A stretch of DNA of 4,056 nucleotides, from positions 1 to 4,056 of IMG/VR virus record IMGVR_UViG_2529293039_000008. One strand, 5' to 3'. A model generated the notes under the pieces. The model ran no database searches. It saw only the letters and a list, made by a program, of their open reading frames with translations, and had not been told where the DNA came from. The position numbers and the translations under genes were made by a program. Within the stretch, counting starts at the first letter, position 1, and the number at the start of each line of letters is the position of its first letter. Source of the stretch: a virus. Lineage: Duplodnaviria > Heunggongvirae > Uroviricota > Caudoviricetes. Positions 1,463 through 2,199 of the stretch are shown piece after piece.

Positions 1463-2199
1463 GCCAGTTTCTGGTTGCCGCTAACCGTATCGCGTTTATT
1501 GACCCGGCAAACGGGAATGAAACGCCGATGTTTGTGGCGCAGGGCAACCAGATATTCATGAATGACGTGTTCCTGAAACGCCTGGCGGCCCCCACCATTA
1601 TCAGCGGTGGCAATCCACCGGCATTTTCCCTGACACCGGACGGAAAGCTGACTGCTAAAAATGCGGATATCAGTGGCAGTGTGAATGCGAACTCCGGGAC
1701 GCTCAACAACGTCACGGTAAATGAAAACTGTACGATTAAGGGCATGCTGGAGGCGACTCAGGTCAGAGGTGACTTCGTTAAAGCTGTATCCAAATCATTT
1801 CCGAAACAGGCTGGTACGTGGGGTAACACGGAAACACCAAACGGGACGGTTACAGTCACCATCAGCGATGATCATAACTTTGACCGTCAAATCATTATTC
1901 CGCCCATTATCTTTAACGGAATAGCGTATAGCTATCCGGGAAGTGGTAATAACCCGGGAGGTACAAGATACACGGGGTATGGTTTTGAAGTTCGCAAAAA
2001 CGGTGTATTAATCGCATCCAGAGAAACTAAAGGGGCCATTCCCGGTAGCTACAGTGCGGTTATTGATATGCCGAGTGGCAGGGGAAGCGTCACTCTGGAG
2101 TTTAAGGTTTTCCATAAAGGCAATCAGTGGGCAGGTAATATCACCGACTGTACGGTGATTGTGACCAAAAAAGCCGCTTCCGGCATCAGAATTCGTTGA
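1360..2199 (+). CDS. J: Tail-tip host-specificity protein J, C-terminal portion including the receptor-binding domain; continuation of the upstream J ORF in the -1 frame, so probably a frameshifted gene or pseudogene.
   Basis: Frame 1 from ~1378 reads VKIEQTK...[51 protein letters not shown]...[15 protein letters not shown], collinear with the lambda gpJ C-terminal region. There is no credible start codon or RBS of its own (the 1360 GTG is internal to the upstream ORF). Stop TGA at 2197-2199 is followed directly by a terminator hairpin. Confidence 0.8.

What the first reader, a model, noticed from the sequence alone, without database searches (positions are those of the whole stretch)
1738..2199. 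J C-terminal receptor-binding domain is divergent and compositionally distinct from the rest of J
Upstream of ~1738 the J translation is near-identical to lambda gpJ as I recall it. From about ...NENCTIKG onward ([74 protein letters not shown]...) it is recognisably homologous but strongly diverged from the lambda LamB-binding C-terminus. By eye the DNA here is also more AT-rich than the preceding J sequence (not computed). That is the signature of a recombinationally exchanged host-range cassette, so the tail tip probably recognises a receptor other than LamB. Functional relevance depends on whether the upstream frameshift is real.
Basis: partly seen in the sequence, partly recalled or inferred. 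Interest (0 to 1): 0.5.

Follow-up and report, generated by a model that had tools for sequence, protein, structure and literature searches.

The report
Phage 434-type J receptor-binding domain
The last 153 codons of this prophage tail-tip gene J are the well-known phage 434 version of the receptor-binding domain, which uses the porin OmpC where lambda uses LamB; it is an ordinary, widespread host-range module.

Summary
Window 1-1737 encodes a J body 94.0% identical in protein to lambda gpJ. The last 153 codons (1738-2196) are only 36-39% identical to lambda's receptor-binding domain (RBD). Nucleotide identity to lambda drops from 92-98% to about 50% within roughly 50 nt around 1706-1755. GC3 drops from 66-69% to 48%.

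The interpretation also holds, but it is not new. The segment is 94.8% identical to the J RBD of phage 434, whose J is reported to use OmpC. It is 99% identical to J in many E. coli prophages and long-tailed Stx1a/Stx2c phages. It matches Pfam PF12421, and a model of it superposes on the solved lambda (LamB-bound) and A8 (OmpC-bound) gpJ RBDs at TM 0.71-0.74.

The block that differs from lambda is larger than reported. It runs from about 1706 to about 2790 and takes in most of lom.

The upstream "frameshift" is three single-base homopolymer indels within 57 nt, in a stretch otherwise identical to a close relative. A similar cluster of four indels sits just before the IS junction. I found neither cluster in any other sequence. 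This points to sequencing or assembly error, but that is unproven. The stf gene is cut by an ISEc13-like element. Verdict: already known, low interest.

The parts
1..1737 (+). Body of tail-tip gene J, equivalent to lambda gpJ residues 406-984. Contains the end of the hub domain, two Ig/FNIII domains, and the helical shaft and beta-prism of the central fibre.
   Evidence: Pfam hits Phage-tail_3, Ig_J, Ig_J_second and Phage_Tail_Tip. Protein identity is 94.0% to lambda J and 93.8% to 434 J after repair of three indels.
1373..1429 (+). Cluster of three single-base homopolymer indels, net -1, that breaks the J reading frame: G run one base short near 1373, A run one base short at 1395, extra T at 1429.
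   Evidence: Alignments to 434, lambda, E2348/69 and L004. There are no substitutions against L004 in 1-1372. Absent from 5,426 complete E. coli genomes, GTDB representative genomes and JGI metagenomes. Repairing them gives an open 732-codon reading frame.
1706..1755 (+). Left junction of the module. Identity to lambda collapses here, at codons for ...[16 protein letters not shown].
   Evidence: Mismatch positions and per-50-nt identity. The blastn alignment to lambda ends at 1755.
1738..2199 (+). J C-terminal receptor-binding domain of the phage 434 type: 153 codons plus the stop at 2197-2199.
   Evidence: 94.8% aa identity to 434 J, 99.3% to E. coli prophage L004, 39.4% to lambda. 74 phage records carry it at 90% nt identity or more. 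PDB sequence search with the RBD alone gives 9wca at 6e-27 and 8xcj at 8.5e-19.
1786..2193 (+). Pfam PF12421 (Ig_GpJ_C, 'Tip attachment protein J, C-terminal receptor binding domain') match, covering the Ig-like beta-sandwich core.
   Evidence: E 2.1e-27, 96.3 bits against a cutoff of 26.2, profile positions 1-134 of 135. AF2 model has mean pLDDT 70.6, with the core at 71-93 (one 10-residue block at 62). Foldseek TM 0.71-0.74 to 9wcb, 8xck, 8xcj and 9wca.
2218..2251 (+). Intrinsic-terminator-like hairpin with a T run, immediately after J.
   Evidence: Terminator scan: 10-pair stem, 5 G-C pairs, TTTATTG tail. The phage 434 and mEp460 records list a terminator among the features under the match.
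2269..2868 (+). lom (Ail/Lom outer-membrane beta-barrel). Its first ~520 nt belong to the same block that differs from lambda. Homology to lambda resumes at about 2790-2800.
   Evidence: Pfam Ail_Lom, E 5e-121. Lom is 47.7% identical to lambda Lom and 95.0% to 434 Lom. Per-50-nt identity to lambda is 50-82% up to 2800, then 92-98%.

Best explanation
Window 1738-2196 encodes the phage 434 type of the gpJ receptor-binding domain. This is the Ig-like beta-sandwich at the distal end of the trimeric central tail fibre of a lambda-like prophage.

How it got there (inferred). It sits on a J body of the lambda/434 kind because the C-terminal 'specificity region' of J circulates among lambdoid phages as a recombination module. 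In this window the module relative to lambda runs from about 1706 to about 2790. It carries the J-lom intergenic region and most of lom along with it.

How it works (inferred by homology with the solved lambda gpJ-LamB and A8 gpJ-OmpC complexes). Three RBDs present their distal loops to the extracellular face of a trimeric porin. Binding spreads the RBD bases apart. That movement passes up the beta-prism and helical shaft and opens the tail tip for DNA ejection.

Which receptor (inferred, not shown). The most likely receptor is OmpC, as reported for phage 434, and not LamB.

Whether this copy is functional. As written, the RBD is out of frame with the J body. The frame break is most likely a sequencing or assembly error, so the gene is probably intact.
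For: - Identity: 94.8% aa to 434 J RBD, collinear without gaps, against 39.4% to lambda. By tblastn, 91.5-98.7% to 74 phage records and under 46% to all others, including lambda at 35.7%.
- Abrupt junction at 1706-1755 and a GC3 shift from 66-69% to 48%.
- Family and fold: PF12421 at 96 bits. The RBD alone matches PDB 9wca (A8 gpJ) at 6e-27 and lambda gpJ 8xcj at 8.5e-19 over its full length. The top four Foldseek hits for the AF2 model are 9wcb ('A8 gpJ 713 ... with OmpC G17 from E. coli EDL933'), 8xck, 8xcj and 9wca, at TM 0.71-0.74.
- Receptor: replacing lambda J with the 434 tail fibre gene makes the phage bind OmpC, the receptor 434 uses (PMC11101478, introduction). The central fibre of 434 is described as targeting OmpC (PMC12502783).
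- In the sequenced hybrid 'Lambda h434 imm21', J nt 1 to about 2000 are lambda and about 2116-3414 are identical to 434. The 434-derived part therefore starts inside J and includes this RBD.
- Modularity: PMC6646904 shows J 960-1132 has a phylogeny independent of the rest of J, with lineage-defining indels at 1012, 1048-1049, 1077-1078 and 1107. The gaps between this RBD and lambda fall at those places.
- Mechanism: PMC11101478 describes four bottom loops entering the porin lumen and the opening cascade.
- Frame: three single-base repairs restore a 732-codon ORF. All seven indels against the closest relative are homopolymer-length changes in two clusters. The simulated chance of such clustering is 2e-6.
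Against: - No experiment ties this exact allele to OmpC. It differs from 434 at 8 of 153 residues (positions 20, 24, 25, 35, 65, 66, 115, 151). Most of these lie in or beside predicted loops. My recollection, not re-checked in the papers I read, is that about four loop substitutions are enough for lambda J to gain OmpF use.
- gpJ variants that bind OmpC can discriminate between OmpC alleles: 1A2 delivers efficiently to EDL933 OmpC but not to K-12 OmpC (PMC11338833).
- As the sequence stands, the RBD is not in frame with the J body, and the neighbouring stf is interrupted by an IS. The prophage may really be decaying.
- The model is only moderately confident (pLDDT 70.6, built from 13 near-identical sequences). 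It is a monomer, so loop orientation relative to the receptor was not established.
Confidence: 0.8

Rival explanations
1. It is the 434-type module, but this allele recognises a different porin (OmpF, PhoE or another), or only certain OmpC variants, because its loop residues differ from 434.
For: - 8 of 153 residues differ from 434. The family-wide variable sites (20, 24, 25, 35, 65, 66, 115, 124, 126, 131) cluster at or beside predicted loops.
- gpJ 1A2 discriminates between the OmpC of EDL933 and of K-12 (PMC11338833).
- This allele is the one carried by O157-associated Stx1a/Stx2c phages, at 98.7% aa identity.
- Residues in the lambda specificity region are under diversifying selection (PMC6646904).
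Against: - 94.8% identity to 434 with no indels. 24 of the 32 differing codons are synonymous, which suggests conservation rather than a functional switch.
- Phages carrying near-identical RBDs were propagated on K-12 derivatives: PhiR26_1 and PhiR11_1 on MG1655, Ayreon on K12, phi458 on MC1061.
Confidence: 0.12
2. It is a dead relic. The J frameshift is real, the RBD is no longer translated as part of J, and the prophage is decaying, so the segment has no current function.
For: - The frame is broken at 1373-1429.
- stf is truncated by an ISEc13-like insertion at 3697.
- Four more indels disrupt the end of stf.
Against: - All 7 indels are homopolymer-length changes packed into two windows of 57 and 63 nt. 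There are 54 substitutions elsewhere, and none in 1-1372.
- The simulated probability of such clustering is 2e-6.
- The indels are private to this sequence.
- The RBD itself carries no stop codon or indel and is 99.3% identical to an intact homologue.
- stf is dispensable in laboratory lambda (PMC12617516).
Confidence: 0.2
3. There was no exchange. The C-terminus simply diverged in place from a lambda-like ancestor under diversifying selection.
For: Receptor-binding regions evolve fast, and loop indels occur at known hot spots (PMC6646904).
Against: - The step from 92-98% to about 50% nt identity happens within about 50 nt.
- The GC3 shift affects synonymous sites.
- The divergent block continues through non-coding DNA and into lom.
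- The same RBD is 94.8% identical in 434, whose J body is no closer to the window than lambda's is.
Confidence: 0.02

Closest known systems
Phage 434 central tail fibre J (UMO75362.1 in OL657227.1) and the classical lambda h434 host-range hybrid
   Same: - RBD of the same length, collinear, 94.8% aa identity (145 of 153).
- Same downstream lom type (95.0%).
- Same J-lom-stf gene order.
- 434 J is reported to use OmpC (PMC11101478, PMC12502783).
   Different: - Eight substitutions (A20S, K24Q, V25A, D35N, D65S, N66Y, G115R, S151R), mostly at or near predicted loops.
- The window copy has a broken frame upstream.
Lambda gpJ receptor-binding domain, LamB-specific (PDB 8xcj, 8xck, 8iyk)
   Same: - Same Pfam family and fold (TM 0.71-0.74).
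- Same position at the tip of a 94%-identical J body.
- Presumably the same porin-triggered opening mechanism (PMC11101478).
   Different: - Only 36-39% identical.
- Gaps at the loops around lambda residues ~1010, 1048/1049, 1077/1078 and 1100-1110.
- Lower GC3, 48% against 63%.
- Different receptor.
A8 gpJ, an engineered lambda chimera carrying a natural prophage RBD, solved with OmpC (PDB 9wca, 9wcb; PMC11338833)
   Same: - Best PDB match by sequence (6e-27) and by fold.
- An OmpC-binding member of the same RBD family.
   Different: - Only 46.5% identical, so it is a different RBD lineage.
- OmpC use in the two lineages cannot be assumed to involve the same contacts.
J 'specificity region' module, residues 960-1132 (Maddamsetti et al. 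2018, PMC6646904)
   Same: The finding is an instance of this described phenomenon: a C-terminal segment with its own phylogeny and lineage-defining indels. Phages cdtI, Ayreon and mEp460, which carry this same RBD type at 94-99%, were among the nine related genomes compared in that study.
   Different: Nothing substantive. In this window the exchanged block can be seen to extend into lom.

Membership tests
gpJ C-terminal receptor-binding domain (Pfam PF12421, Ig_GpJ_C) | Sequence match to the family profile above the curated threshold, over the full domain | tested here: met
   96.3 bits against a cutoff of 26.2, E 2.1e-27, profile positions 1-134 of 135.
gpJ C-terminal receptor-binding domain (Pfam PF12421, Ig_GpJ_C) | Located at the extreme C-terminus of a J protein, after the tail-tip fibre (PF09327) region | tested here: met
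   PF09327 is followed by PF12421 and ends one residue before the stop. Intact homologues show the same architecture.
gpJ C-terminal receptor-binding domain (Pfam PF12421, Ig_GpJ_C) | Ig-like beta-sandwich fold superposable on solved gpJ RBDs | tested here: met
   AF2 model pLDDT 70.6, all-beta. Foldseek top four hits are 9wcb, 8xck, 8xcj and 9wca, TM 0.71-0.74, E about 1e-13.
gpJ C-terminal receptor-binding domain (Pfam PF12421, Ig_GpJ_C) | Forms a trimer that docks onto a trimeric porin | not testable with these tools
   Only monomer prediction is available.
Phage 434-type (h434) J specificity module | Near-identity to 434 J over the whole RBD, with the same loop lengths | tested here: met
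   145 of 153 identical with no gaps.
Phage 434-type (h434) J specificity module | Adsorption or infection depends on OmpC | not testable with these tools
   Inferred only, from literature on 434 (PMC11101478, PMC12502783).
Phage 434-type (h434) J specificity module | RBD translated in frame with the J body | tested here: inconclusive
   Not in frame as written. The break is three clustered homopolymer indels, probably sequence error.
Lambda-type LamB-binding RBD | High identity to lambda gpJ 985-1132 | tested here: not met
   35.7-39.4%.
A8-type OmpC-binding RBD (PDB 9wca) | High identity to the A8 RBD | tested here: not met
   46.5%. Related, but a different lineage.

The most novel reading that the evidence does not exclude
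The particular allele here has S65, Y66, R115, V124, H126 and W131. It is shared at about 99% with the long-tailed Stx1a/Stx2c phages of O157 (which do not share this sequence's private S151R). It may have an OmpC-variant specificity different from that of phage 434, or may use a second porin. If so, the handful of variable loop positions in this otherwise conserved module would act as a natural switch for host range among E. coli lineages.
Probability: 0.15. Interest if true: 0.3.

Novelty: already known. Interest (0 to 1): 0.1.

Why it matters
It matters little beyond correct annotation. This prophage's tail tip should be labelled as the 434/OmpC type, not the lambda/LamB type. That is relevant to predicting which strains such a phage, or the closely related Stx1a/Stx2c-converting phages, could infect. 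It is also relevant to choosing gpJ modules for engineered lambda delivery particles. The case is a clean textbook example of the modular exchange of the J specificity region, and it shows the exchanged block carrying lom with it.

Tried and rejected
- Source of the window. Exact-pattern scans for the frameshift region found nothing in GTDB representative genomes or JGI metagenomes. Exact-product look-ups for the truncated stf ORF and both versions of the frameshifted J ORF also found nothing. The best complete E. coli genome is only 97.4% identical. The closest sequence found is L004 (GCA_900448265.1) at 98.4%. The source remains unknown.\n- Sequence of the OmpC-specific gpJ chimera 1A2. I searched the supplements of PMC11338833 to see whether 1A2 is this allele. 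No sequences are held there.\n- Direct receptor data for phages carrying this exact allele (Ayreon, phi458, cdtI, PhiR49_1, Perceval, mEp460). None turned up among the listed hits. A search for 'h434' with 'OmpC' returned nothing.\n- Named lambda host-range substitutions. Only V1077A was found in the library. I therefore did not rely on my recollection of the others and used the residue positions given in PMC6646904.\n- search for homologous proteins returned mostly fragments and chimeric mis-assemblies. The alignment for structure prediction was therefore shallow and the model only moderately confident.\n- In-place divergence was rejected because of the sharp junction, the synonymous-site composition shift, and the extension of the block into non-coding DNA and lom.

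Full report
**What the window holds.** On the + strand the window carries five things.
- The 3' two-thirds of a lambdoid tail-tip gene J, at 1-2199.
- lom, at 2269-2868.
- The end of an IS4-family element from 3697, with its transposase on the - strand.
- Terminator-like hairpins after J (2218-2241) and after lom (2895-2916).

Pfam finds Phage-tail_3, Ig_J, Ig_J_second and Phage_Tail_Tip in J, and PF12421 ('Tip attachment protein J, C-terminal receptor binding domain') at window 1786-2193. It also finds Ail_Lom, phage_tail_N and the Tn5-type transposase dimerisation domain. The gene order J-lom-stf matches lambda, phage 434 and many E. coli prophages.

**Checking the observation.**
- A blastn alignment to lambda J stops at window 1755.
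- Per-50-nt identity to lambda is 92-100% for 1451-1700, 76% for 1701-1750 and 50% for 1751-1800. It then stays at 44-68% to the end of J.
- After repairing three single-base indels, the upstream 579 residues are 94.0% identical to lambda gpJ 406-984. The last 153 residues are 39.4% identical globally and 35.7% by tblastn.
- GC is 47.7% in 1738-2196 and 57.3% in 1-1737. GC3 is 47.7% against 66-69%. Lambda's own RBD has GC 55.6% and GC3 62.8%.

Both parts of the observation are therefore correct. One caveat applies: J is compositionally patchy. GC is 63% in 1-900, and a patch at about 939-1397 is as AT-rich as the RBD. The GC step near 1740 is real but is neither the only one nor the largest.

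**What the segment is.** The segment is the phage 434 version of the J receptor-binding domain.
- It is collinear with 434 J and 94.8% identical to it (145 of 153). The J body is no closer to 434 (93.8%) than to lambda (94.0%).
- 74 phage records carry the segment at 90% nt identity or more. They include 434, lambda h434 imm21, mEp460, cdtI, Ayreon, phi458, phages induced from ECOR strains, and many long-tailed Stx1a- and Stx2c-converting phages at 99.4%.
- At protein level the phage hits split cleanly. Those 74 records sit at 91.5-98.7% and all the others at under 46%, with lambda at 35.7%.
- Protein fragments of the same type are annotated from E. coli, E. albertii and Shigella sonnei.
- Among one-genome-per-species representatives, it turns up only in Escherichia and in one evidently mis-binned 'Collinsella' MAG contig.
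- The closest relative I found is a prophage in E. coli assembly GCA_900448265.1 (L004). It is 98.4% identical over 1-3696, and its RBD is 99.3% identical.

**Fold and homology to solved structures.**
- With the RBD alone as query, the PDB sequence search gives A8 gpJ (9wca/9wcb) at 6e-27 and lambda gpJ (8xcj, 8iyk) at about 1e-18. Both alignments run over the full domain.
- An AlphaFold2 model was built from a shallow alignment of 13 sequences. Mean pLDDT is 70.6 and pTM 0.70, and the core residues score 71-93, apart from one 10-residue block at 62.
- The model is all-beta. Its top four Foldseek hits are 9wcb ('Open state of A8 gpJ 713 central tail fiber with OmpC G17 from E. coli EDL933'), 8xck and 8xcj (lambda closed, and LamB-bound open) and 9wca, at TM 0.71-0.74. 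Nothing else is comparable.

**Mechanism and receptor (inferred).** For lambda, the RBD is an Ig-like domain. Four bottom loops insert into the extracellular lumen of the LamB trimer. Binding spreads the three RBD bases apart, and the change passes up the beta-prism and helical shaft to open the tail tip (PMC11101478).

The same paper states that replacing lambda J with the 434 tail fibre gene makes the phage bind OmpC, the receptor 434 uses. PMC12502783 likewise describes the 434 central fibre as targeting OmpC. It notes that the 434, lambda and phi330 RBDs share only 35-40% identity with one another.

In the sequenced hybrid 'Lambda h434 imm21', J is lambda-like up to about nt 2000 and identical to 434 from about nt 2116 to the end. 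The 434 DNA continues downstream. So the segment that confers 434 host range starts inside J and includes this RBD.

Other natural gpJ C-termini (A8, 1A2) also redirect lambda particles to OmpC, and 1A2 discriminates between OmpC alleles (PMC11338833). On this basis OmpC is the most likely receptor. This is an inference from 94.8% identity, not a demonstration.

**Extent of the exchanged block.** Relative to lambda, the divergent block does not stop at the J stop codon. Identity stays at 50-82% through the intergenic region and lom up to about 2790, then returns to 88-98% until about 3250. It falls again in the repetitive middle of stf. Lom is 47.7% identical to lambda Lom and 95.0% to 434 Lom. 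The unit that differs between the lambda and 434 types is therefore the RBD plus most of lom, about 1.1 kb.

**This is already described.** PMC6646904 showed that J residues 960-1132 form a 'specificity region' whose phylogeny is decoupled from the rest of J. That region has lineage-defining indels at 1012, 1048-1049, 1077-1078 and 1107. The gaps between this RBD and lambda fall at those places.

**The upstream frameshift.**
- Against 434, lambda, E2348/69 and L004, the window has three single-base differences within 57 nt. One G is missing from a G run near 1373, one A is missing from AAA at 1395, and there is one extra T at 1429. The net change is -1.
- Against L004 there is no substitution at all in 1-1372.
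- The only other indels in 3.7 kb are four more homopolymer changes at 3625-3687, immediately before the IS junction.
- Seven randomly placed events would fall into two such windows with probability about 2e-6.
- None of 2,055 matching records from complete E. coli genomes shares the pattern; the best identity is 97.4%. It is also absent from GTDB representatives and JGI metagenomes.
- Repairing the three bases gives an uninterrupted 732-codon J C-terminus.

This pattern fits low-quality sequence better than biological decay. I put the chance of artefact at about 0.75-0.8. It cannot be settled without reads.

**Allelic variation within the 434 type.**
- The window differs from 434 at RBD positions 20, 24, 25, 35, 65, 66, 115 and 151. 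Of the 32 differing codons, 24 are synonymous.
- Across 12 cluster representatives the recurrently variable sites are 20, 24, 25, 35, 65, 66, 115, 124, 126 and 131.
- In the model these sites lie in or next to four loops: [30 protein letters not shown] and HKGNQWAG.
- Whether these are the receptor-facing loops was not established.
- S151R (nt 2190) is private to this sequence.

**Verdict.** The feature is a known, common module: the 434-type J RBD. Interest is low.

**Dead ends.** The source of the window could not be identified. The sequence of gpJ 1A2 is not in the held supplements. I found no receptor experiments for phages carrying this exact allele.

Noticed in passing
window 1373, 1395, 1429 and 3625, 3661, 3669, 3687: Seven single-base homopolymer indels relative to the closest relative (L004) fall in two tight clusters. 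One breaks J. The other lies just before the IS junction and scrambles the end of the stf reading frame. There are no substitutions in 1-1372. This looks like low-quality sequence, for example read ends at a repeat boundary, more than real decay.
   Followed up: partly
window 3697-4056 (- strand transposase 3708-4056+): stf is truncated after about 250 codons by an IS4-family ISEc13-like element, 98.4-98.9% identical to copies in E2348/69 and other E. coli. From memory, its terminal 19 bp (CTGTCTCTTGATCAGATCT) equal the IS50/Tn5 inside end. The transposase C-terminus hits the Tn5 dimerisation domain in Pfam.
   Followed up: partly
window 2269-2790: Lom is only 47.7% identical to lambda Lom but 95% to 434 Lom. 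The divergence from lambda is continuous with that of the J RBD, so the RBD and most of lom appear to travel together. Whether that linkage has any functional meaning is unknown.
   Followed up: partly
window 901-1000 and 1201-1300: Two further short patches inside the J body (the second Ig-like domain and the region just downstream of it) drop to 79-83% nt identity against both lambda and 434. They are 100% identical to E2348/69 and L004. They coincide with an AT-rich stretch (about 939-1397, GC 47.7%). This is additional small-scale mosaicism within J.
   Followed up: no
window 3280-3690: The Ala/Ser/Glu-rich repetitive middle part of stf diverges from lambda stf (52-70% nt identity), while the N-terminal 115 codons are conserved at 86-92%.
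   Followed up: no
L013 (JAGZNZ010000056.1, 1-1350): A 1,350-nt contig binned into a 'Collinsella sp.' MAG encodes this E. coli-phage J RBD at 97% identity. It is almost certainly a binning contaminant.
   Followed up: no
phage record MW057783.1 ('Campylobacter phage CJLB-4'), 18380-18817: This record carries a J RBD with the same coverage, identity and score against the query as lambda itself, in a 48.4-kb genome. That suggests the record is lambda or a lambda contaminant and not a Campylobacter phage.
   Followed up: no
L006 (LT903847.1 3704356-3724955), locus 6157-10000: In one prophage of the E2348/69 lineage no J gene is called. The window aligns there only in two pieces (1-1246 at 89.5% and 1588-3696 at 96.8%). 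This suggests a rearranged or disrupted J in that prophage.
   Followed up: no
P0003, P0008, P0009: Several database 'proteins' fuse unrelated N-terminal sequence to this RBD exactly at the conserved DISGSVNAN motif. They are probably chimeric assemblies across repeated prophage J genes.
   Followed up: no
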